Of a stretch of DNA of 64,000 bases, positions 1 through 63,592 are shown piece by piece. Under the pieces are notes generated by a model. That model had not been told where the DNA came from. It saw only the letters and a program-made list of their open reading frames with translations, and ran no database searches. Numbering within the stretch: position 1 is the stretch's first letter; every line of letters starts with the position of its first letter. Both the position numbers and the translations under genes were made by a program. Source of the stretch: Scenedesmus sp. PABB004 (taxonomy: Eukaryota); contig JABVCE010000035.1 in the NCBI GenBank assembly GCA_014905635.1, positions 1 through 64,000 of the forward strand, in the 5' to 3' direction.

Positions 1-17
1 CCGTCCCCCAACTGCAG

Positions 18-3000
18 GTGTCGACGCTGGAGGGCACCGACACGTGGCTGCGCGTCGTCGCGGCTGAGAAGCAGGGGCTCATCAAGGCCAGCCTCACGTG
101 GCCGCCGGAGCACCTCGAGGCGCGCGCACACCGCCCGCGCGCGCACGGCGCGGCGGGGGCCGGCCGGGGCTGCGCCCCGGCCCCTCCTGTGCGGCTCTTG
201 GTCCGCTCTCGGCGCGCTCGGAGCGCACATCTACACGCGCTCGTAACGTTATAACATAATGTGACACCCGCCCGCCTGCTCGCCTCCCCCTCTCAACCCC
301 AAACCCCCGCAGGCGTGCCTGAACGACCTCAACGAGCTCTTCCTCAGCGATAACGTGGCCGAGGTGGCGGAGAAGTGGAACGAGTGGCGCCGCTCCGTCA
401 TGGCCGCCGCGCTCACCGGCCGCCTGCTGCCCGTGATGCTGGCCGAGCTGCGCGCGCGCCTCACCGCGTCGGCGACCGAGACGGTGCTGGGGCAGGTCCA
501 GGACAGGTGCGGACGCGGCGCGCGCTCGCTCTCGCGCCCGCCGCGCCGCGCGCCCGCCGCCGCGCCCTCGGCCCCTCCCCTGCCGCCCGTGAACCCCTAA
601 ACCCTAAACCCTCGTCAACCCCCGCCCGCAGGTTTTGGGCGTTTGCGTCGCAGCCGCCCGTGCGCATCATGGAGGTACCGGACGAGCAGGACCAGGAGCC
701 CGTGCAGATGGAGGCGCCGCGGCTCATGGCCGCGGTCTGGGGCGCGGGCGCGCTCGGGGAGGGCCCCACCACCGTCGTGCAGCTCGACGGCCAGGGTGCG
801 TGCCGCGCGGGAGCAGTGCGGGCGGCGGCGCGCGGGCGGGCGCGGGCGCCCTCTGGGGCCGCCCTCGGCGCGCCGCCGCCCCGACGCGCTGCACCCCCTG
901 AACCCCAAAACCCCGACCCCCGCGGCGCCCCTCTGCACCCCACCAAACCCCTCCCTGCTGCCCCCCCCCGGCCTGCGGCGCAGGCAACCTGAAGGACCTG
1001 CTCACCGCCGCGCAGCTGAGCGGCAACGTGCCGCGCACCGTCAACAGCGGCACGCGCGAGAACCCCGTGTTTGACCCCGCGGCAGACCCCAAGAAGGTGC
1101 GTGCGTGCGCGCGTGCGCGCGTGCGTGTGCGTGTGCGTGCGTGTGTGTGTGTGTGTGTGTGGTGTGTGTGTGTGTGGTGTGTGTGTGTGTGTGTGTGTGT
1201 GGGTGTGGGTGTGGGTGTGTGTGTGTGTGTGGCGCGCCGCCGCGGCTGGCGCGCGCGGGGCGGCGTCTTGGGTGGTCGCGCGGGGCTCTGGGGTTGGCCA
1301 GCGCTCCCTCCCCTGACGCCAATGCCCGCGCCCGCCCGCGCCCGCCCGCGCCCGCTGGACAGTCGCGGGACAGCCACAAGCTGCGCGAGAAGCTGCTGGA
1401 GCACAAGCCCAATGCCGTGCTCGTGGCGACGTGCAGCCCGCAGGCGAAGCAGATCAAGGACGACATGGAGAAGATCAGCCAGTACACCGAGAGCGAGTGC
1501 GTTGGCGGTTTCTTTGCTGTGTGATGTTATGACATTGTTATGACGTCAAGACCCTCTTGTGTGTTGTTTTTGTTGAGCGGTGTTGTTGCCGTCGCCTGCG
1601 TCGTCTGTTTGGCCGGTGTTGCTTGCAACAGGTATGCTGTGCGCAACAGTCTGGCTGCTGCAAGCAACACCGCCCAAACAGACGACGCATACAAGCGTCT
1701 GGTTTGTGTTGATGCATGGCTTGCACGCCCCGCGCCCCGCGCCCACCCCGCCCACGCCCCCCGCCCGCCCGCGCAGCCCGCGGTTCAAGGACGACCTGCT
1801 GCCGCACCTTGAGAACAAGCGCGTGGAGGTGGTCTGGGCGGACGACCAGGTCGCAAACCTCTGGGCAGCCAGCGAGGCGGCGCGGGCTGAGTTCCCAGAC
1901 TACTCCTTCCTGGTGCGCGCCTGCTGGTCTTTGCTGTGTGTTGTTGCGTGCTTTTGTGTGTTGTCGTGTGTTGTTTGGTGGTGTCGCGTTTGGCGCTGCG
2001 TTGGGTGCCCGGCGCGCGCGCCGCGCGCCGCCGCCCTCCCCACGACCCGCGCTCGCTCCCGCTGCCTCACACTGCCTCCCCCCCTCACCCACCCACACCC
2101 ACCCACACGCACACACGCACACACGCACACACACACGCACGCAGGTGCGCAAGGCGGTCGGCCTCGGCCGCATGGCCCTCGACCCGCTCGCCATCGTCGC
2201 GGTGCTCTGCGGGCGGCGGCGCGAGGTGCTCTCGCTGCGCCTGCACGACCTGCAGGCCCTGCTGCCGCGCGAGGCGCTGGAGCAGCGCCTCGAGCAGGCG
2301 CGCACGGGGGGGGGGGGGGGGGGGGGGGCGGGCTCGCGCGCGCGGCGGCGCGCCAGTGCCGGCGCACGCACGCGGCGCCCGCGCCTGCTACAGCTCTGCC
2401 GCTGGCTCCCCCTCCTCCGGCCCCCGCCCCGGCACCTCACCAAGCGCCCTAAACCACCACTCTCCGCCTGTCCAAACACACCACCAAACACACGCACACA
2501 CAAGCGCAGACGCTCATCACCGCGGTGGCCCAGGTCGGCGTGGACCTCAACGCCGTCGCCGCCAACCCCTGGCGCGCGGCGCCGCTCGCGTTTGTGCCCG
2601 GCCTCGGCCCCCGCAAGGCGCGCGCGCTGCTCGCGGCGATCAGCGCGAACGACAACCACGTCAAGCAGCGCACCGACCTGCTGCACACGGTGCGAGGCAG
2701 GCTAGAGGCAGGCCGCGGGGGAGCAGGGCGCCGGGGGGGGGGGGGGGGGCGTGGCTCGAGCCGGCGGCGCGAGCCGGCGGTGGTGCGGCGAGCGGGCGGG
2801 CGCACGAGCCTGACGCTGCCGGGGCCTGCTCACCGCCCCGCCCCGCCCGCGCCACGCGCCACGCGCCGCCCCGGCCGCGCGCAGCCCAACGACGCCGACA
2901 TCTTTGGCGGCGCGCCGCCGAGCGACCTGCAGCAGCTCTCGCCGGTCGTGTTCCGCAACGCCGCGCCCTGCCTGCGCGTGCGGCGCGGCGAGGTCGCAGC

Positions 3001-6000
3001 GCTGCAGAACGAGGAGGAGTTTGACGCCCTCGACGACGCGCGGATCCACCCGGAGAACGAGGCGCTGCTGCAGGCGCGCGGCGGGATGCCGGGCTGTGGA
3101 TGCCAGGCTGTGGATGTCCGGGAGGGGGGGGGCAGGCGCGGACGCGGGCGGGGCCGCGGCGTGGCGCGATGCGTGGCGCGGCGGCCGGCGCGCGCGCGCG
3201 CGGCGGCGGCCGCGGTCGCGGCGCGGCGCGTGGTGATGACCATGGTCACGGTGTTTGTGGCCGTCGTCATCACCACGCGCCGCGCCGCCGCCGCCGCCGC
3301 CCGCCCGCGCCGTGCCCCCCTTTGCGCGCGCCACCCCGCGCGCACGCGCGCCAACGCTCCCCCGCTCTCCCTCCACCCTGCGCCCCCCCCCCCCCACACA
3401 CACACACCTGTGCGCAGGTCATCCTGGAGGAGGCGTACCACGAGTCGGTGGAGGCCGGCACGGGCGTGGACGTGCGCGTGGCGATCGAAAACCCCATGCC
3501 GCTGCAGCAGGCGCGGCGCGGCGCGCGCCGGCTCGCTCGCCCGCCGCGCGCCGCCGCGCGCGCGCCCGCGCGCCCCGCGCCTCACCAGCCAACCCTCCCC
3601 TGCTCCGCCCGCGCGGCGCGCAGCTGGACCTGTTCAGCGTGGCCGAGGCCAACAAGGCCGACCACCGGCTGACCACGCTGGTCGACATGATGCAGGCGCG
3701 GCGGGGTGTAGGACTCGCCAGGCCGCCGGACGCCCGGGCCGCGCCCGCACGCGCACCCCCACGCGCGCCGCCAACGCCGCCACCGCCGCCGCCGCCACCG
3801 CGCCCGCCGCGCCCGCCGCGCCCGCCGCCCGGCGCGCAGGAGCTGCTGGCGCCGTACGGCGAGCTGCGGCTCGCGGGCGGCGCGCCGGACGACGAGGAGG
3901 CGTTCTACCTGCGCCACGGCGAGACGCCCGAGAGCCTGCGGGTGGGCGCGGCGGCGGGGCCTGTTTCACGGGCGGGGCCCGCCCTGGCCCCCGCCGCGGC
4001 CGCCCCCCGGCTCCGCCCCTTGCCGACCGCGCTGCAACGCCCGCCCTGCACGCCCGCGGCGCTGCCGCGGCGTCGCTTGCAGGAGGGCAAGCTGGTGGAG
4101 GCCAAGGTGGTGTGGGTGGGCGAGGCGGAGGTAAAGGTGGTCATACAGAGCAACAACATGGAGGCCCTCATCCCCCAGGCGCGCTGTTGTTTTGTGTGAC
4201 TGTTATGTTATGACTGTCAGTTTGACGTGTCGTGAGAGGTGGTTTGACTTGTTGTTGTGTGTGTCCGCCGGGAAGTCCGCGCCTCTTCAGCCGTCACACA
4301 TAACATAACAAGTCAAACCACCAGTCATGTCATGACGAGTGAAACAATGGTGGCCGCGCGATAGCTTGGCGCGCTGACGAGCGCCCGCCGACGCCGCCGA
4401 CCGCCCGCGCGCGCCGCGCGCGCCGCAGGTCTTTGCGTCGGACGAGCTCGGCGCGACGCCGCTCGGGCAGCGCTTCACCATGGGCCAGGTTTGCTCGCGC
4501 GCGCCGCCGCCGCCACGCGCCGCTCTGGCTGCCGCTCTGGCCGCCGCCGCCGCCGCTGCTGCCACACACGCACACGCACACGCACAAAGCCACGCGCACG
4601 CTCACCCGCGCGCGCGCGCGCAGGTCGTGACCGCGCGCATCAAGCGCGACGACCAGGCGTCAGAGGTGTACTACGATGACAACCAGCGCCGCCGGTGCGC
4701 CGCCCCCGCCCGCACGCGCGCCGCCCGCGCGCGCGCGCCGCCCGCCCGCGCGCCGCCGCGTCCGCCGCCCCCGCCGCGCGCGGGGAGATGCACCAAGGCA
4801 GCCATGGTCTGTCGGTGTGACGAAGCACGGCGGCGACAGCGTCGCGCGGCTCTGTCACATGGACAGACCATGGCGGCCTTGATGCATCTCCCCGCGCGCG
4901 GCGGCGGCCCCGCACGGCAGCCTGCTGCGTGCGCCGCCGCGGCACCGCGCGCGGGCCCCGCGGCGCGCCGCCGTGCCGCCCGCCGCCCCCGCCGCGCGGC
5001 CGCCTCGCGCGCCTCTGCCGCCGCCGCGCCTGCCGCGCGTGATGATGCGCGCCTCCCACGTCCTGTCACTGTGTTACTAACAGGTACACCATGACGCTCA
5101 CGACCGCGAGCAAGGACCTCAACGACTTTGCGCGCTGGGAGCGCGTGTACTGCATGGTGCGCCGCCGCCGCAACTGCAGGCAGCAGGCAGCAGGCCGCGC
5201 GCGCGGCGGGCGCAGCGCAGCACAGGCGGGCGGCGGGGGGCAGGCGCCGCGCGCGGCGCGCCAGGCGGCCGCGCTGAGCGCGCCGCTGCCGCCGCCGCCG
5301 CCGCCGCCGGCGCGTCTGCCGCCGGCAGGAGGAGGACAAGTCGTACAAGCCCCCGAGCCGCGCCGCCGCCGCCGCCGACGCCGCGGTCGCGGCCGGCGCG
5401 GCGACGCCGGGCGGCACGCGGCTGCCGAAGCCGCGCGGGCCGCTCGCGCGGCGGCCGATCAGCCACCCGCTGTGGCGCAACGCGCCCCTCGGCGAGGTGC
5501 GCCGCCGCGCCGCCGCGCCGCGCACTCGCCGCCTGCCGCCGGCGCCGCCCGCCCGGCCCACTCGCCGCGCTCCCCCTGCCCCGCCCCTCGCCCCCAGGTG
5601 GCTGAGGAGCTCACGGACGCGCCGCCGGGCGCGGTGCGCTTCCGGCCCGTGCGCGGCTCGCTCGCGGAGCAGCTGAGCCGCCTGTACGTGACGTTCAAGC
5701 TCGCCGACTTGTCCTCGGGTGCGCTTGCGATTTGGCCCGCCTGCGCGCGCGGCGTGCGGCGCTGCGCTGCGCTCGCAGCACGCCGGGCCCGGCGCGGCGC
5801 GCCCGCAGCACGCCCGGCGCGGCGCCGCCCACGCCCGTGCCCTCGGACCGCCGCCCACGCGCCGACCGCGCCCCGGCGCCGCGCGCTGCGCCGCCCCGCC
5901 GCGCCACAGGCCCGCTGCTCGCGAGCGTCAAGGCGCTGGAGCCGGCGGACAAGCCGGCCAAGTCGGCGGGCCTGGCGACGCCGCTGCGCATCGAGGTCCC

Positions 6001-7496
6001 GGGGCGCCCCGGGGGCGGCAAGTATGAGACGTACGACGACCTGGATGAGGTCATTGCGCGGTGAGAGGGGGGGGGGGGGGGGGGCGGAGGCAGGGCGGCG
6101 GAGGCAGGGCGGCGGAGGCAGCGGACGAGGGGAGCGAGGGAGGGAGGAGCGGGCGAGGAGGGAGGGGAGCGGGCGGCCCGCTCGGCGGGGCGGGGCGGGG
6201 CGGGGCGGGGCCGCGGGCTGGCGCGTGGGTCGGCAGCCGGGCGGCCGGGCGGCCGCGCTGACGGCTGTGCGGGCGGCGGCGCAGGTACGTGGAGCCCGTG
6301 GTCGAGCGCGCGACGGAGGTCGCGCACCACCGCAAGGCGGTCGCGGGCGACGAGGAGAAGATCAAGGCGAAGCTCACCGCGCAGCTCACGACGGCGGGCG
6401 CGGGCGCCGGTGCGCGCGGCGCGCCGCCGCGCCGCGCGCGCGCTCGGCGCGGCGCGGCGCCGCGCGCGCGCTCGGCGCCGCGCCGCGCGCCGCACACACA
6501 CACACTCACACACACACACACACACACTCACACACGCCCCGCGCCGCCAGGCGTGTACGCGGTCGCGCTCTCCGCGGCCAACGCTGGCCTCGGCGAGATC
6601 TGGTTTGGCAGCCAGGGGCGCGGCGCGACGGGCACCGTGTACCGCGAGCTCTTCACGCTCACGCCCTCCGGCTACGTCTTCCGCGGCGCGCTGCACCCGA
6701 CGCTGGAGCACGTGCTGTCAGCGTTCAAGGCAAACCCCAACTACGTGTGCGTGGCGCGGCGGCGTGGCGCTGCGGCGAGGGCGGCGGCGAGGGGCGGCGG
6801 CGAGGGGCGGCGGCGAGGGGCGGCGGCGCCGCGCTCACGCGCGCCGCGCCCGCGCGCGCCCGCCGCCGCCGCGCAGCAAGCAGGAGGCGCTGCGGCGCAG
6901 CGGGCAGGTGCCCGGCGGCGGCGCGGCGGCGGCGCGGGCTACGGCGCGCCGGCCGGCGGGCAGGGCGGCTACGGCGCGCAGCAGCCCAGCGGCGGCTACG
7001 GCGCGCAGCAGCAGCCCGTCGGCGGCTACGCCAGCGCGCAGCAGCCCGTTGGCGGCTACGGCGCGCCGCAGCCCGGCGGTGGCGGCTACGGCGGCGGCGG
7101 CTACGGCGGCGCGCCGCCGGCGGCCGCGGCGGCGGCGATGACGGCGGCCGCGGCGGCCGCGGCGGCGGCGGCGGCGGGCGGCGGCTACGGCGGCGGCGGC
7201 GGCGGCTACGGCGGCCCGCCCGGGGGCGGCTTCCGGCCGCCCGGCCCGCCCGGCCCGCCCGGCCCGCCCGGCCCGCCCGGCCCGCCCGGCGGCGGTGGGT
7301 ACGGCTACGGCGGCGGCCCGCCCGGCGGCGGCGGCTACGGCGGCCCGCCCGGCGGCGGCGGCTACGGCGGCGGCCCGCCGCTGCCGGGGCCGCCCGGCGG
7401 CGGCTACCAGGCCGCGCCGTACGGGGGGGCCCGCCGGGGCCGCCGGGCTACGCGCCGCCGCCGCCGCAGCAGCAGGCGTACGGCTACGGACGGTGA
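18..7496 (+). CDS. SPT6: Transcription elongation factor SPT6 (5'-partial, >20 exons)
   Basis: Spliced exons give SPT6 motifs in order: YqgF-like region ([16 protein letters not shown]), [22 protein letters not shown], Hh[38 protein letters not shown]1-like region ([17 protein letters not shown]), tandem SH2 ([35 protein letters not shown]) and a Gly/Tyr/Pro-rich tail ending YGYGR-stop at 7496. Two apparent frameshifts in the last exon. Confidence 0.93.
595..612. repeat. Short interstitial telomere-like tract (CCCTAAA)x2.5 in an SPT6 intron
   Basis: ccctaaaccctaaaccct about 20 nt upstream of the 3' splice site at 631. Confidence 0.6.
1098..1231. repeat. (GT)n/(GC)n microsatellite in SPT6 intron
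   Basis: Long interrupted gtgtgt run directly after the donor site. Confidence 0.9.
1597..1689 (+). ncRNA. Intronic fold-back hairpin (pre-miRNA-like) 1 in SPT6
   Basis: tgcgtcgtctgtttggccggtgttgcttgca (1597-1627) pairs with tgcaagcaacaccgcccaaacagacgacgca (1659-1689): 31 bp with 1 mismatch. The structure is seen; function is inferred. Confidence 0.5.
3218..3288 (+). ncRNA. Intronic fold-back hairpin 2 in SPT6
   Basis: 23-bp perfect stem (3218-3240 with 3266-3288) extended by catggtcac/gtggccgtc with G:U pairs and a 7-nt loop. Confidence 0.4.
4228..4332 (+). ncRNA. Intronic fold-back hairpin 3 in SPT6
   Basis: ggtggtttgacttgtt (from 4238) pairs perfectly with aacaagtcaaaccacc (to 4322), extendable on both sides; unusually AT-rich for this genome. 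Confidence 0.4.
4771..4904 (+). ncRNA. Intronic fold-back hairpin 4 in SPT6
   Basis: 51-nt arms (4771-4821 and 4854-4904) are reverse complements except at about 4 positions. Confidence 0.55.
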
Positions 7497-31341: not shown

Positions 31342-31405
31342 GAAACCAGGACTGAAACCAGGACTGATATCGATATCAGTCCTGGTTTCCATCAGACCTG
31401 GTTCC
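31342..31405. repeat. Perfect 36-bp palindrome with flanking extra arm copies
   Basis: gaaaccaggactgatatc|gatatcagtcctggtttc at 31354-31389, a direct copy gaaaccaggact at 31342-31353 and a degenerate copy at 31392-31405. Confidence 0.95.
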
Positions 31406-46483: not shown

Positions 46484-48285
46484 ATGGCGCTCACCCAGAA
46501 GGAGCTGGACATCCAGATGCTGCTGGCGGCGGGGTGCCACCTTGGCACCAAGAACTGCAACTATCAGATGGAGCGCTACGTCCACGGCCGGCGCCAGGAC
46601 GGCATCTACGTCATCAACCTCGAGAAGACGTGGGAGAAGCTGCAGATGGCGGCGCGCATCATCGTGGCCATCGAGAACCCGCAGGACGTCGTCGTGCTGT
46701 CGGCGCGCCCCTACGGCCAGCGCGCGGTCTTCAAGTTTGCGCAGTACATCGGCGCCAAGTCCCTCGCGGGCCGGCACACGCCCGGCACGTTCACCAACCA
46801 GATCCAGAAGCAGTTTGAGGAGCCGCGCCTGCTCGTGCTGACCGACCCGCGCACCGACCACCAGCCGATCAAGGAGTCTGCCTACATGAACATTCCGGCC
46901 ATCGCGTTCTGCGACACCGACTCGGCGCTCACGCACGTCGACGTGGCCATCCCCGCCAACAACAAGGGCAAGCACAGCATCGGCGTGCTCTACTACCTGC
47001 TCGCGCGCATGGTGCTGCAGATGCGCGGCACCGTGTCGGCGGCGAGCCCGTGGGACGTCATGGTGCGGCGCCGCCGCGGCGCGCCGGCGCGGCGCGGGGG
47101 CCGGACGGGGGCAGCAGCAGACGCGCGGGGCAGGGCGGCGGCGGCGGAGGGCCGGGGAAGGGCGGGGCGGGGCAGAGAGCGGCAGCGGCGGCTGCAGCAG
47201 CGGCAGCAGCAGCAGCAGCAGCGAGCGCGCGCGCGCGGCGGCTGCGGCCCGCCGCGCCGCACCGCGCGGCCCGGGCGGCGCCCACGGCGCTCAGGGAGGC
47301 CGCGGGCGGCGGCGGGCCGGCAGGCGGGGCGCGCGCAGCCACCGGAGCGCCGGCGGCGGCTGGAGCAGCGCTGGCGGCTGGCGGCTGGCAGCAGCGGCGG
47401 CTGGCGGCAGCAGCGCCGGCGCCGGCTGGCGGCGGCGCGCGTCGCCACGCCCGGCACGCCCGGCACAGCCTGCTGGCAGCAGGAGGGCAGCGATCTGGGC
47501 GTCGCCGGCGAGGCGGGGCCGGCAGGCTGGCACGCCCGCGCGCAGCAGCAGCAGCAGCAGCAGCAGTGGCAGCAGCCGCCGGCTGGAGAGCTGAGCGGGC
47601 GGCGACCGCTGCGGCTCACCGCAGCAGCGGCGCCAGCGATGGCTGCTGTCTGCCTCGCTCTGCGCTTTGCTCCTCGCATGCAGCGACGCCGGCAGCAGCC
47701 GTCGCTGGCGCCGGCGGCAGCGGCGCCAGCAGCAGCGGCAGCAGGGCGTGGCCGGGCGGGCGAGCGGCAGCGCGCTCCCCGCACCTCCCGCTCGATGCCC
47801 CTCCACCGCGCCTGCGCTGCCCCTCCACCTGCTCGACCCTGGATCGCGGCCCCGCTGAACCGCTCGCCCCGCTCCGCCCCGCTAAACCCCAGGTCGACCT
47901 CTTCTTCTACCGCGAGCCGGAGGAGACGGAGAAGCCCGCCGACGAGGCCGCCGACTTTGGCGCGCCGACCGGCGAGTTTGGCGGCGCGCTGCCGGCGCCG
48001 AGCGCGCAGGACCAGTGGGCCGCGCCCGCCGCGCCCGCCGAGTTTGGCGCCGCGGGCGCGCCCGGCTTCGAGGCGGCGACCGGTGAGCGCCGCGCCGCGC
48101 CGCGCTGCGCTGCGCCGCAGCGGCGCCGCGCGCAGCAGCCCGCGCGCGCCGGCCGCCGCTCACACCCCCGCCTCGCGCCGCGCCGCGCAGGCTTCGAGGC
48201 GGCCACCGGCTTTGAGGCCGCGGCGGCGCCCGCGCCCGAGGCCGTGGCGTACGCCGCGCCGGAGGCGTTTGGCGACAAGTTCTGA
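46484..48285 (+). CDS. RPSA: 40S ribosomal protein SA (uS2), 3 exons
   Basis: [83 protein letters not shown]; exons 46484-47062, 47893-48082, 48191-48285. Confidence 0.98.
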
Positions 48286-57559: not shown

Positions 57560-60143
57560 CCGCGCTGGGTCGTCAACGCGGGCTCCCGTGCGGGGGAGCC
57601 CGAGTTGACAACCCATGCGTGGGGCCCCGCGCATGCACGGCCACGACGTCCGCGGAACGCGCGCGCGCCGCGCGGCACTCATGACATGAACGCCGCACAG
57701 CCCGCCGGCGTCGCGGCCGTGCATGCGGCCGCGCGCGACGCGGCGCGCCTGCCGTGACGACACACGAGCGCGGCGTTTTGTGCTGCGGCGCGGCGGCCAG
57801 GCCCCGCAACATGGGGGGGGGGGGGGGGCTGCGCGGCGGCGCTGATCGCGCCCATTTTGGCTGAGCCGCCCGCGGGTCCTGGAGGGGGTTGGAGCTGGTG
57901 GGCGTTGGCCGGCGCGGGGCGGCGGTCGCCGCGGGCCACGGCCCCGCGCGCGACGCCCAGCCGGCGCACGCCGGCCCCGGAGTGTTGAGTCCACAGAGTC
58001 TCCACTAGCCGCCCTGCACGGCCTACTCGCGTCTACCGGTCATCCTTCCCCAAGCTCCTAACATTCGGTGCACCACGTCGCAGGGGGCGCGACTCTGCGA
58101 GTGACGGCCGGCGGGGCGCGGCGCGGCGCGGCGTGTGCTGCGTGTGCGCCTGGGCGGGCTTGCCGCGGTTGGTGTGTGGTGCCCCTGCTGGTGGCGGCCT
58201 GCCCCACGTCGTTTGCGTGAGATGAGGCGGGGTTTGCGCTGGTTTTCCCCCGCTGCCCCTGTGGCCCGGTAGGGCCTGCGTGGCGTGGTTGCACGGGTCA
58301 AGAGGACCAGCTACCGTCCTTAAAAAGGGGCGCGGGCCCGATGTGCGCGAGCATACAGGGTAAATGACCTTGACCTTGACCCATGAACGTACGTTGGTGT
58401 TCGTGCCGCGGGTCAGCGCCGCCGCGCAGCCCCCTGCTGGGGGGCCAGCGGCCCGAGCATCTGCCTGCTGCGCCACCACCCTCTAACGCCGACCAACACC
58501 GACCATGGGCAGCCTGCGAACGCCGGCGCTCGCAGGCTGCGCATGTTCGGTGTTGGCGGCGCGCGCGGCGCGCGCGGCGCGCGCGGCGCGCGCGCGCGGC
58601 GGTGTCAGCATGGCCGCCGCTGGCGCGGTGTGTCTGGCCCCGCGCCCGACGCGACGGCGCCGTCGCGCGCTCGGCCTGGCCGTGGTTGACCGCCATGCCC
58701 GCCAACCACGCGCAAGGCGGCGGCGGCCGGCGCGGTGAGGCGGTGGCAGTGGCACTGCGGCGGCCGGCGTGGCGAGGCGGTGGCAGTGGCACACTGTGGG
58801 CGCCGGCACCCTCAACGCCGACCGACACCGACCGCGGGCAGCCTGCACACACCGGGAGCAGCCTCGAGCTCCGACGTCCGGCGAGCGCCGGAGCTCGAGG
58901 TTGCTCCCGGCGCTTGCAGGCTGCCCGCGGTCGGTGTTGGCCGCGGCGGCGCGCGCGCGTGCGGCGCTGTCAGCCAGCCGTCTACGCACGGGCGTGGTCG
59001 GGGGAAGGGGGGCACCGCACGCCGAGCCGGCGGGAAGTTAACAAGCCCATTCCTGAGCCGGCGCTCGCACACGCAGCACACGCGCGCCCCACAGCCGCCG
59101 CTCACCCCGCGCGCGCCCGCAGCTCACGCACGCCCCGCTGCGTCGGGGCGGCCCTCGGCAGGTCCGGGGCCAGGTGGGGCAGACTGCTGCTGGCGGTAGT
59201 TGGTGTCGGCCACGACGTGCGCTGGCGGCGTCGCCATGCCAGACAACGTCCAGGTCGACACCAACCATCGCCAGCAGCAGCAGTCCGCTGGCGCGCGCCG
59301 ACGCCCGCGCCCTCGCAACCCAGCAGGGCAGCGCCAGCGGCCCCAGCCGCCCCAGCGCGCCAGCGCCAGCGGCCACCGCCGGCCCCAGCGCGCCGCCGCC
59401 GCCGTTGCTCGGGGGGCGCCCGGGCCGCGCCCCGCGAGTCTCGCAGCAGCAGCTTCTGCTGACCGTTCCGCGTCACGCGGTGCCGACGCGTGACGGTTAG
59501 CAGAAGCTGCTGCGCGACAGCCGAGCGGCGCCTCGCGCCCCAGCCCCCCTTCGGAGCGGCGCGCCCGTGGGCCTGCACCCGGCGCTGGCAGCCGCAGGTC
59601 TGGAAGGCCACGGGCGCGCCGCTCTGCCAGGCGGGCGCGGGCGGTCCGCGCGCCGACCGCGGCTGCGCAGCGCACGCGCGCGCCCCACAGCCGCCGCGCC
59701 CCGATCGCCGCGTGCGGCGCGCCGGCTGCTCCGTGGCCGCGCGCCTGCGCCGCAGCGCGCGGCCCGCTCGCCCCGCGCGCGGGCGCGCGGGGCCCGCGCC
59801 ACGATCAAGCCGCGACCCCGAGGCTGCCGCCCACCTGGCAGGCCGGAGCAGCGGCGCGAGGCGTGACGGTTGTGTGTGGTTGCGGGCCGCCACGAAACCT
59901 TCACGCCTCGCGCCGCTGCGGCCTGTTCGGTGTTGGGGGCGCCGGCGCGCGCGGCTCTGGCAGCGCCGCGCGCGCCGCGCCCGCTGCGTCAGGGCGGCCC
60001 TCGGCAGGTCCAGACCCGTGGGCAGACCGCTGCTGGCGATAGCTGGCGTCGGCCACGACGTGCGCTGGCGGCGTCGCCATGCAAGGGCACGTGGAGGTCG
60101 ACACCAACCGTCGCCAGCAGCAGTCCGCCGGCGCGCGCCGACG
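57560..60143. ncRNA. Cluster of at least 9 long fold-back hairpins (candidate polycistronic pre-miRNA/hairpin RNA locus)
   Basis: Inverted repeats at 57566-57615, 57630-57727, about 58329-58408, 58487-58561, 58822-58940, 59179-59288, 59441-59517, 59848-59919 and 60022-60128, with no credible coding exon in the region. Confidence 0.55.
59134..60143. repeat. Dispersed direct duplication (about 170 bp) carrying paralogous hairpins
   Basis: About 59134-59305 matches about 59980-60143 (cgctgcgtcRgggcggccctcggcaggtcc...ggtcgacaccaaccRtcgccagcagcag). Confidence 0.9.
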
Positions 60144-60932
60144 GCCTCGCGCTGCATGGCGCCGCCCGCGCCCACCACCTCCGCCCCGCGCGCGCTGGCG
60201 ACCCGCTGTCACGACACGCCGCAGCGGCCCGGCGGCGCAGCAGCAGCAGCAACGCGGCCGCCGGTGCAGCTGGCGCGCCGCCCGCGCAGCGGCCCCGCAC
60301 GGCGCGCGCGGCCGCGGCGGCTGCGGCGCAGCGAAAAAGCCGTGTCGGGCGGGGCTGGCGGGCGCGGGCGCGGAGCGGCAGAGCGGCAGAGCGGCCGCGC
60401 GCGGCGCGCTGTGCAGCGGCGGCGCGGCGCTGCGGACGCGCTGCTGGCGCTTTCGGCGGTGCCGGGCGCGCGCGAGGAGCAGGGCGGCAGCCGCGCGGGG
60501 GCGATCTGGGCGCGGGGAGCGCGTGGGCGCGCAGCAGGGATGGCGCGGCCGCGTCATTCGGGCTCAAGGAGCCAGCGCCGCGTTTTCATGCCGGGCGCCC
60601 CTCCCAGTCGCTCAGTATCTAGATCAACCAACCGCTGGACCACGCGCCCAGCCGCGCCGACAGCGCCACTCGCTCCGGCAGCTCCCGGCAGAACAGCAGC
60701 AGCAGGTGCGCCGAGGAGCGCCCCGCGGGCGGCCGCCCCCGCCCACCCACGCGCGCCGACACGGCCACCGGGACCGCCTGGCGTCGCTGCGCGCCGCCCG
60801 GCCGCGCTGGCGCCACCAGCGCTGCCGCCGACCGCGCCGCGCCGCCGCAGGCGCCGGCGCGCCCGGATCCGCGGACCGGCGGCGGCGGCGGCGGCCTCCC
60901 TCGACGCCCCGTCGCCCGGGCAGGGCGCAGGC

Positions 60933-63153
<2,221 letters not shown>

Positions 63154-63592
63154 GCGCCCGCAGCGCCGAGCGCGTGCAGTGCTGCGCGCGGGCGCGCGGC
63201 GCGCGGGGTGGTGCGGCGGTGGTGGGGCGGCGGGAGGGTCGAGCAGGACCGCCAGGCATTCTTTTTTCATCCCTAGCAAAACTGATGGGGCGGCGGGCTG
63301 CGGGTGGCGTCGGCGTCGTGGCGGCGCGAAGTTGGGCGGTCGCGGGAGTTGTGCACCGCCGCCGCCGCCGCCGCCGCGAGAGCGCCAGGCCGCGCCTGGC
63401 GTCGGGCCTGGGTAACTGCGAGCTGCCCACGAGCGCGCTGGGCGCGTGGGGACTCGCTCGCGCGCTGGCGCAGCTCGGGCGGGGCGTCTTGGACCGGCTT
63501 GCGCGCCGGGCGGGCGCGGGCTTCCCACGTGGTCGCCCAGCGGCCGCGAGCGCGCGCCCACGCGCTCGGCACACCACCCCCAGCGCGCTCAA

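What the first reader, a model, noticed from the sequence alone, without database searches (positions are those of the whole stretch)
57560..60143. Gene-free region packed with long fold-back hairpins: candidate polycistronic microRNA cluster
Seen: the 5.4-kb gap between the mTERF-like and hbd genes, in an otherwise gene-dense window, holds at least nine separate inverted repeats with 20-55 bp imperfect stems and non-low-complexity arms, 50-120 nt long and tens to hundreds of bases apart. Known: Chlamydomonas and Volvox miRNAs are lineage-specific, come from long hairpins and are sometimes clustered. Inference: one non-coding transcript processed into several small RNAs, probably unannotated. 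Foldback/MITE remnants are the alternative.
Basis: partly seen in the sequence, partly recalled or inferred. Interest (0 to 1): 0.8.

Follow-up and report, generated by a model that had tools for sequence, protein, structure and literature searches.

The report
Fanzor transposon relic turned into hairpins
The hairpin cluster in this green alga is real and is built, at least in part, from a decayed copy of the alga's own Fanzor (RNA-guided nuclease) transposon, so it may make small RNAs that silence that transposon, but no RNA data exist to show that it does.

Summary
The hairpins are real: 8 of the window's 15 strong fold-backs lie in 57566-60129, against 8 in 200 kb of background. They are not MITEs (single copy) and match no Rfam family. 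Three of ten (58487-58561, 58816-58945, 59839-59927), with their flanks, are diverged pieces of the 3' non-coding end (presumed guide-RNA region) of a young, about 8.5-kb Fanzor/TnpB transposon of this genome. One arm holds a 21-mer perfectly antisense to it. A second locus (G000:C1:124.7-126.7 kb) shows the same thing on the Fanzor coding region: nine serial fold-backs, each replacing native sequence in place, as template switching does. A young SINE-like element (57855-58381) has split a tenth hairpin. Best reading: a transposon relic converted into a hairpin array that works like maize Mu killer, a possible source of anti-Fanzor small RNAs. Origin is well supported; function is not. There is no G-U strand bias, no favoured antisense arm, one stem is decaying, seven hairpins have no proven source, and expression could not be tested. 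An inert mutational hotspot is nearly as likely.

The parts
57566..57615 (.). Hairpin H1, about 23 bp stem; single copy, source unknown
   Evidence: z -8.6; no other match in genome; no significant match to the Fanzor element
57630..57727 (.). Hairpin H2, weak; 3' arm possibly from the Fanzor coding region
   Evidence: z -2.3/-3.7; 1 of 40 background stretches scored as high, suggestive only
57824..58434 (.). Hairpin H0, split by the SINE-like insertion; outer arms 57824-57845 and 58413-58434
   Evidence: 22 of 22 complementary; the two flanks fold into one long stem, -78.6 kcal/mol over 97 nt
57855..58381 (+). 5'-truncated copy of a young, about 0.8-kb non-coding SINE-like repeat with a (TGACCT)n tail and a probable 4-bp target duplication
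   Evidence: 97-98% identical to five full-length matches, 85% to a second subfamily; short duplications at other copies, longest frame 150 aa
58462..58612 (+). Unit A1: hairpin 58487-58561 plus flank, relic of the Fanzor 3' non-coding region; 5' arm holds a 21-mer perfectly antisense to it
   Evidence: z -9.7; nhmmer E 4e-6; penalty 0; this fold-back form occurs once in the genome
58792..58990 (+). Unit A2: diverged duplicate of A1, hairpin 58816-58945 with a second, nested fold-back in its loop
   Evidence: z -15.0; 84% identical to A1 over 57 nt; nhmmer E 4e-6
59118..59402 (+). Unit B1: Fanzor-like lead-in, then hairpin 59177-59290 of unknown source
   Evidence: z -9.0; 78% identical to 59964-60238; no other genomic copy
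59427..59531 (.). Hairpin C; 3' arm possibly from the last codons of the Fanzor ORF
   Evidence: z -7.2; single copy; 1 of 40 background stretches scored as high, suggestive only
59549..59629 (.). Hairpin D, source unknown
   Evidence: z -4.0; single copy
59839..60005 (+). Unit E: hairpin 59839-59927 (antisense arm first), then collinear Fanzor 3' region with a 33-nt deletion, ending about 92 nt short of the element's right end
   Evidence: z -6.9; nhmmer E 5e-10, model positions 160-327; best 21-mer penalty 0.5
60019..60131 (.). Hairpin B2, duplicate of B1 with three outer-stem pairs broken
   Evidence: z -5.4; pair-by-pair comparison

Best explanation
The region is a decayed, locally duplicated relic of the genome's own Fanzor transposon, in which short-range template switching has repeatedly copied one stretch onto its neighbour in reverse, making a row of 20-60 bp fold-backs. 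Shown: the hairpins, their enrichment, the Fanzor origin of three, and the same conversion at a second locus. Inferred: template switching as the cause, and a shared origin for the other seven hairpins. Inferred and untested: the array is transcribed, Dicer-like enzymes cut the stems, and Argonaute uses the antisense arms to silence Fanzor RNA, including its presumed guide-RNA scaffold. It would work like maize Mu killer or fly hairpin-RNA loci, but as many small hairpins instead of one long one. Confidence in origin about 0.8; the value given is for origin plus silencing role.
For: Fanzor identity of the element: PF07282 E 1.2e-9, full TnpB/Fanzor motif, 17 of 19 genome matches over the cut-off, copies 90-98% identical with a shared right end. 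A1, A2 and E outscore all of about 275 natural background windows, are the top 3 nhmmer hits in 264 kb and beat 40 of 40 background stretches. Best 21-mer penalties 0, 3.0 and 0.5 on the + strand against 3-7 for four control hairpins. Second locus: 9 fold-backs in 1.9 kb, all from Fanzor sequence, antisense arm first, each replacing native sequence in place. Six young near-full copies have no call above threshold in 49.6 kb (5 calls at exactly 20), and another old relic has none in 7 kb. At the second locus 6 of 9 stems carry changes shared by both arms and arm mismatch is uneven (P 0.03), which suggests stepwise gain or later homogenisation. Argonaute and RNase III genes are present.
Against: G-U against A-C mismatches in the window stems 13:19, P 0.38: no strand signal. 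Antisense arms are no closer to the active element than sense arms (27 vs 30 edits over 12 hairpins, summed; 3 vs 3 private changes at the second locus). B2 has lost 3 outer pairs and kept pairing at 2 changed sites. A young insertion broke H0. The two double changes between A1 and A2 are adjacent and fit arm-to-arm copying of a native 9-bp helix of the element. Seven of ten hairpins have no significant source or target. Similar fold-backs occur about once per 25 kb genome-wide, and a third cluster lies in a SPT6-like gene with no detected transposon source for the two hairpins searched.
Confidence: 0.45

Rival explanations
1. Inert mutational hotspot: same Fanzor-relic origin, but the fold-backs pile up because hairpins stall replication and provoke more template switches, or arose in error-prone copying; any small RNA is incidental.
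For: Nested fold-backs (A2; C1 locus 2323-2474); uniform polarity within the C1 locus; single fold-backs at matching places in independent copies L011 and L139; no strand or arm asymmetry; decay of B2 and insertion into H0; background of 8 per 200 kb.
Against: Two dense clusters sit on relics of the one Fanzor family found, while young copies and another old relic have none above threshold; at C1, 8 of 9 fold-backs fall in the A/T-richer half (29% vs 17% A/T), though easier melting would also explain that.
Confidence: 0.35
2. Host polycistronic microRNA cluster: one non-coding transcript gives several microRNAs that regulate host mRNAs; the transposon origin of some arms is only history.
For: Stem size and stability; machinery present; seven hairpins have no detectable transposon match; Chlamydomonas microRNAs often come from introns and UTRs (PMC4817775, passages).
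Against: No Rfam family at gathering score; E-value hits are 37-75 bits below cut-off or weaker, generic hairpin matches. No extended host target for the B arm among 20 of 27 seed matches examined. No G-U bias.
Confidence: 0.12
3. Array of stand-alone ('ghost') Fanzor guide RNAs, each a scaffold followed by its own guide.
For: Three segments are homologous to the presumed guide-RNA region; ghost loci exist in fungi (PMC10432273, passages) and extra fRNA copies in Chlamydomonas (PMC10530073, passages).
Against: No segment reaches the last 90 nt or the right end, where the guide must start; the predicted native multi-branch fold is deleted or overwritten.
Confidence: 0.04
4. MITE or foldback-transposon remnants, or an assembly artefact of fold-back reads.
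For: Dispersed repeats do occur inside the region.
Against: The hairpins themselves are single copy; arms differ at 58 of 370 aligned positions and duplicated units have diverged, which read artefacts would not give.
Confidence: 0.04

Closest known systems
Mu killer of maize (PMC3440606, abstract and outline seen)
   Same: Rearranged transposon copy with an inverted duplication, proposed to give hairpin RNA and siRNAs against the active family.
   Different: One hairpin of about 4 kb there; here about ten separate 20-60 bp stems, at two loci; the target is an RNA-guided nuclease element; silencing is not shown here.
Template-switch-born microRNA hairpins (PMC10710096, abstract and outline seen)
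   Same: A single event writes a perfect short hairpin by replacing native sequence with the reverse complement of a neighbour, as seen at the C1 locus.
   Different: Described as scattered and apparently random in primates; here serial, clustered and on transposon relics.
Drosophila hairpin RNA (hpRNA) loci (PMC10317233, abstract and outline seen)
   Same: Young hairpins derived from their targets, suppressing selfish genes.
   Different: Targets are drive genes, not a transposon nuclease; expression and genetics are shown there, not here.
Chlamydomonas Fanzor1 elements CRe-1/2/3 and their fRNA (PMC3627910, PMC10530073, passages seen)
   Same: The source element has the TnpB/Fanzor motif, frequent 5' truncation, intact 3' ends, a variable target duplication (21 bp in 1 of 6 copies checked) and a conserved structured 3' non-coding region.
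   Different: Fanzor subtype and Helitron2 ends were not established; this element carries a SAE2/CtIP C-terminal domain; no close protein relative was found.
Chlamydomonas microRNAs and clustered AGO1 small-RNA hairpins (PMC4817775, PMC10226591, passages seen)
   Same: Lineage-specific hairpins, sometimes several in one intron, with transposon-like traits.
   Different: No sequence family shared; here the source element is identified.

Membership tests
microRNA cluster (criteria recalled, no call) | Stable single-strand hairpin precursors | tested here: met
   8 of 11 candidates z <= -4; enrichment
microRNA cluster (criteria recalled, no call) | Precisely excised miRNA/miRNA* duplex with 2-nt 3' overhangs in small-RNA reads | not testable with these tools
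   No reads could be laid on the locus
microRNA cluster (criteria recalled, no call) | One transcript spanning several hairpins | not testable with these tools
   No reads; strand not indicated by G-U/A-C counts 13:19
microRNA cluster (criteria recalled, no call) | Dicer-like and Argonaute genes in the genome | tested here: met
   PF02171 at three loci, PF00636 at three loci, one with two domains
known Rfam RNA family | Score at or above gathering threshold | tested here: not met
   0 matches in 64 kb; 6 sub-threshold microRNA-model hits
Mu killer / hpRNA-type silencer locus | Inverted duplication of sequence from the target element | tested here: met
   A1, A2, E; 9 of 9 at the C1 locus; not shown for 7 of 10 window hairpins
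Mu killer / hpRNA-type silencer locus | Arm complementary enough to target the active element | tested here: met
   21-mer penalties 0 (A1), 0.5 (E), 3.0 (A2) on the + strand
Mu killer / hpRNA-type silencer locus | Produces siRNAs and represses the element in trans | not testable with these tools
   Needs small-RNA data and a deletion
Mu killer / hpRNA-type silencer locus | Selection on RNA pairing or on the antisense arm | tested here: inconclusive
   No strand bias, no arm asymmetry, small counts
MITE | Many dispersed near-identical copies with terminal inverted repeats and target duplications | tested here: not met
   H1/H2, B, C/D and the A1 fold-back form have no dispersed copies; searches give lower bounds
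Fanzor ghost omegaRNA | Scaffold running to the element's right end, guide directly after | tested here: not met
   Homology stops about 92 nt before the right end
Fanzor/TnpB (source element) | D-X(125,275)-[TS][TS]XX-C4 finger-X(5,50)-RD motif (PMC3627910) | tested here: met
   Read: about 229 residues from D to TS, four cysteines, RD five residues on; PF07282 over cut-off
Fanzor/TnpB (source element) | Guide RNA expressed from the 3' non-coding end; RNA-guided cleavage | not testable with these tools
   Only a predicted fold; 2 of 103 pairs show double changes
Helitron2-type Fanzor1 element | Asymmetric terminal inverted repeats, terminal hairpins, Fanzor1 clade placement | not tested
   No tree or terminal analysis; no close homologue found

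The most novel reading that the evidence does not exclude
The alga keeps dedicated anti-Fanzor loci: relics of an RNA-guided-nuclease transposon that gain hairpin after hairpin under selection, one array covering the nuclease coding region (C1) and this one the guide-RNA scaffold, a home-made memory of a transposon read out as small RNAs.
Probability: 0.25. Interest if true: 0.82.

Novelty: new variant of a known kind. Interest (0 to 1): 0.58.

Why it matters
How eukaryotic hosts restrain Fanzor nucleases is open; four full-text searches listed no paper whose title or abstract start describes host hairpins against a Fanzor, within a library that lacks most subscription papers and without supplements. 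Two arrays with a known donor give direct tests: named 21-mers, a named target, and loci to delete. Even if inert, the C1 locus is an unusually clear record of serial template-switch hairpin birth, the step proposed for new microRNA genes.

Tried and rejected
RNA run search: no RNA holder listed; this says nothing on expression, and no reads were laid. Earlier scan findings were not available. Unweighted inverted-repeat scans were swamped by GC repeats; replaced by an A/T-weighted scan, which favours A/T-rich arms. Rfam: nothing. A second Fanzor family as source of B, C, D: only one family found. Relatives of the element elsewhere: none among 8000 scored candidates of 306-975 aa; 18 metagenome loci at 30-49% identity over short stretches, not followed up; the A1 arm pattern had 0 hits in viral contigs. 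Targets for the B arm: 27 seed matches against 17 for the control pattern, none of 20 examined extended. Chlamydomonas-type polyadenylation signal: one occurrence in 64 kb, uninformative. The automatic A1/A2 pair count misaligned the 3' arm and was dropped; A1/A2 differences were read. The window rows used too loose an allele pool and were dropped; only the nine C1 rows are used. PMC9977147 and PMC10288648 (passages) gave no direct precedent.

Full report
Setting. The window is G000:C30:1-64000 of a 40-Mb, 80-contig genome, about 79% G+C. Intron-rich genes suggest a chlorophyte green alga (inference, not tested). The finding lies in a 5.4-kb gap without Pfam domains (34 of 36 frames empty; the other two run into the dehydrogenase gene). 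The upstream gene's 'mTERF-like' label was not confirmed.

An inverted-repeat scan weighted for A/T pairs gave 15 calls in 64 kb, 8 of them in 57566-60129; ten simulated windows gave 0-3. Twenty arbitrary 10-kb stretches gave 8 calls in 200 kb, so the cluster is about 75-fold denser than background (P about 3e-13). Eight of 11 candidate stems fold at z -4.0 to -15.0, one is marginal, two fail. No Rfam family reaches its threshold.

Anatomy. Self-comparison shows two duplicated units, A1/A2 (84% over 57 nt) and B1/B2 (78% over 291 columns), and a tenth hairpin whose outer arms (22 of 22 complementary) are separated by an insertion. That insertion, 57855-58381, is a 5'-truncated copy of a young repeat, 97-98% identical to five full-length matches, with a (TGACCT)n tail, short target duplications and no long frame: SINE-like. 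Its two flanks fold into one long stem, so the hairpin is older than the insertion and was broken by it.

Source of the hairpins. A1, A2 and E matched the common right-hand end of a second dispersed family. That family is about 8.5 kb long, 90-98% identical among long copies, often 5'-truncated, with a 21-bp target duplication in 1 of 6 copies checked. It ends in an ORF with the TnpB/Fanzor motif, PF07282 E 1.2e-9 and weak TnpB-type structure hits (best E 0.0025); 17 of 19 genome matches pass the Pfam cut-off. This resembles the Chlamydomonas elements CRe-1/2/3 (PMC3627910, passages), whose 3' untranslated region yields the fRNA (PMC10530073, passages). The 3' region here is therefore the presumed guide-RNA scaffold (inference). 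A1, A2 and E outscore all of about 275 natural background windows; the other six intact hairpins and five control hairpins do not. A profile of 17 natural 3' ends ranks the three window segments first in 264 kb (E 5e-10, 4e-6, 4e-6; next 1e-4, low complexity). With a composition-aware matrix 0 of 40 background stretches reach them; C and H2 reach the 1-of-40 level among 17 pieces tested, which is only suggestive. The A1 5' arm contains a 21-mer with no mismatch to the element, E one with a penalty of 0.5. Homology stops about 92 nt short of the right end, so these are not ghost guide RNAs of the kind in PMC10432273 (passages). The fold-back forms are single copy, so they are not MITEs; these searches give lower bounds.

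A second locus shows the process. Scanning the fetched loci (545 kb with overlaps) revealed G000:C1:124.7-126.7 kb, a shrunken Fanzor relic with nine fold-backs in 1.9 kb. In all nine, the 3' arm is native Fanzor sequence and the 5' arm its reverse complement. The upstream flank stays collinear with the element up to or just into the new arm, which replaces native sequence in place. This is the pattern of short-range template switching (PMC10710096, abstract). Single fold-backs of the same polarity occur in two other copies, one over the same segment as E and one over the same segment as a C1 hairpin, with different loops. Six young near-full copies have no call above threshold in 49.6 kb, and another old relic none in 7 kb. 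At C1, 6 of 9 stems have changes shared by both arms and arm mismatch is uneven (P 0.03), suggesting stepwise gain or later homogenisation. Hairpin A is special: the element has a predicted native 9-bp helix at this place, and A1 and A2 look like that helix perfected in opposite directions, which explains their two adjacent double changes without selection.

Function. The genome has three Argonaute-like and three RNase III loci. If transcribed, the array should give small RNAs antisense to Fanzor RNA from either strand, as proposed for Mu killer (PMC3440606, abstract) and shown for fly hairpin RNAs (PMC10317233, abstract). Against a selected role: G-U versus A-C is 13:19 in the window (P 0.38) and 11:7 at C1, whereas the SPT6-gene hairpins give 16:6 (P 0.052); antisense arms are no closer to the active element than sense arms (27 vs 30 edits, summed); B2 has three broken outer pairs; H0 was disrupted; seven of ten hairpins have no proven source; and fold-backs are common in this genome. 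Expression is untested.

Verdict. Origin from a Fanzor relic by template switching: about 0.8 for the three assigned hairpins, inferred for the rest. Silencer role 0.45, inert hotspot 0.35, ordinary host microRNA cluster 0.12, ghost guide array 0.04, MITE or artefact 0.04. It works like a Mu killer or hairpin-RNA locus; membership needs small-RNA and deletion data. Searches listed no description of host hairpins against a Fanzor (listings and abstract starts only; supplements not read; searches served for background). New variant of a known kind; interest 0.58.

Noticed in passing
G000:C1:124043-126771 (L065, L137, L138): Shrunken Fanzor relic with nine serial fold-backs covering the coding region, including both RuvC motif regions; lies between TSSC4-like and GATA-finger-like frames and is flanked by an 815-bp duplication 98.4% identical. 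A clearer case than the window itself.
   Followed up: yes
L031:432-1400 (G000:C15, 5' part of the Fanzor element): The Fanzor element carries a SAE2/CtIP C-terminal domain (PF08573, E 1.7e-9), shared by other copies. A captured end-resection factor beside an RNA-guided nuclease could favour homologous repair; a cysteine-protease-like motif further on is recalled, not confirmed by Pfam.
   Followed up: partly
window 1597-1689, 3205-3301, 4140-4200, 4233-4327, 4771-4904: Five strong fold-backs in a SPT6-like gene, four apparently inside introns (read from the sequence); G-U 16 vs A-C 6 on the coding strand; the two cores searched are single copy. Better candidates for intronic microRNAs than the finding.
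   Followed up: partly
window 57855-58381; L002-L010, L036-L040: Young non-coding SINE-like family of about 0.8 kb with a (TGACCT)n tail and two subfamilies; copies also sit inside Fanzor copies L011 and L012. Autonomous partner not sought.
   Followed up: partly
L011:2001-2090, L139:4593-4674, 5' junction of the C35 copy (L090): Single fold-backs in otherwise ordinary Fanzor copies, all with the antisense arm first, at segments also hit in the two arrays.
   Followed up: partly
window 31354-31389 and 47628-47713: A perfect 36-bp A/T-rich palindrome and an isolated 86-nt fold-back.
   Followed up: no
L148, L152, L155, L163, L003:2901-3161: Isolated long fold-backs, some nested, in arbitrary genome stretches: about one per 25 kb, so fold-back formation is common in this genome.
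   Followed up: no
window 1-6500 and 60930-63200: Many introns appear to begin with GC rather than GT (read, no transcript check).
   Followed up: no
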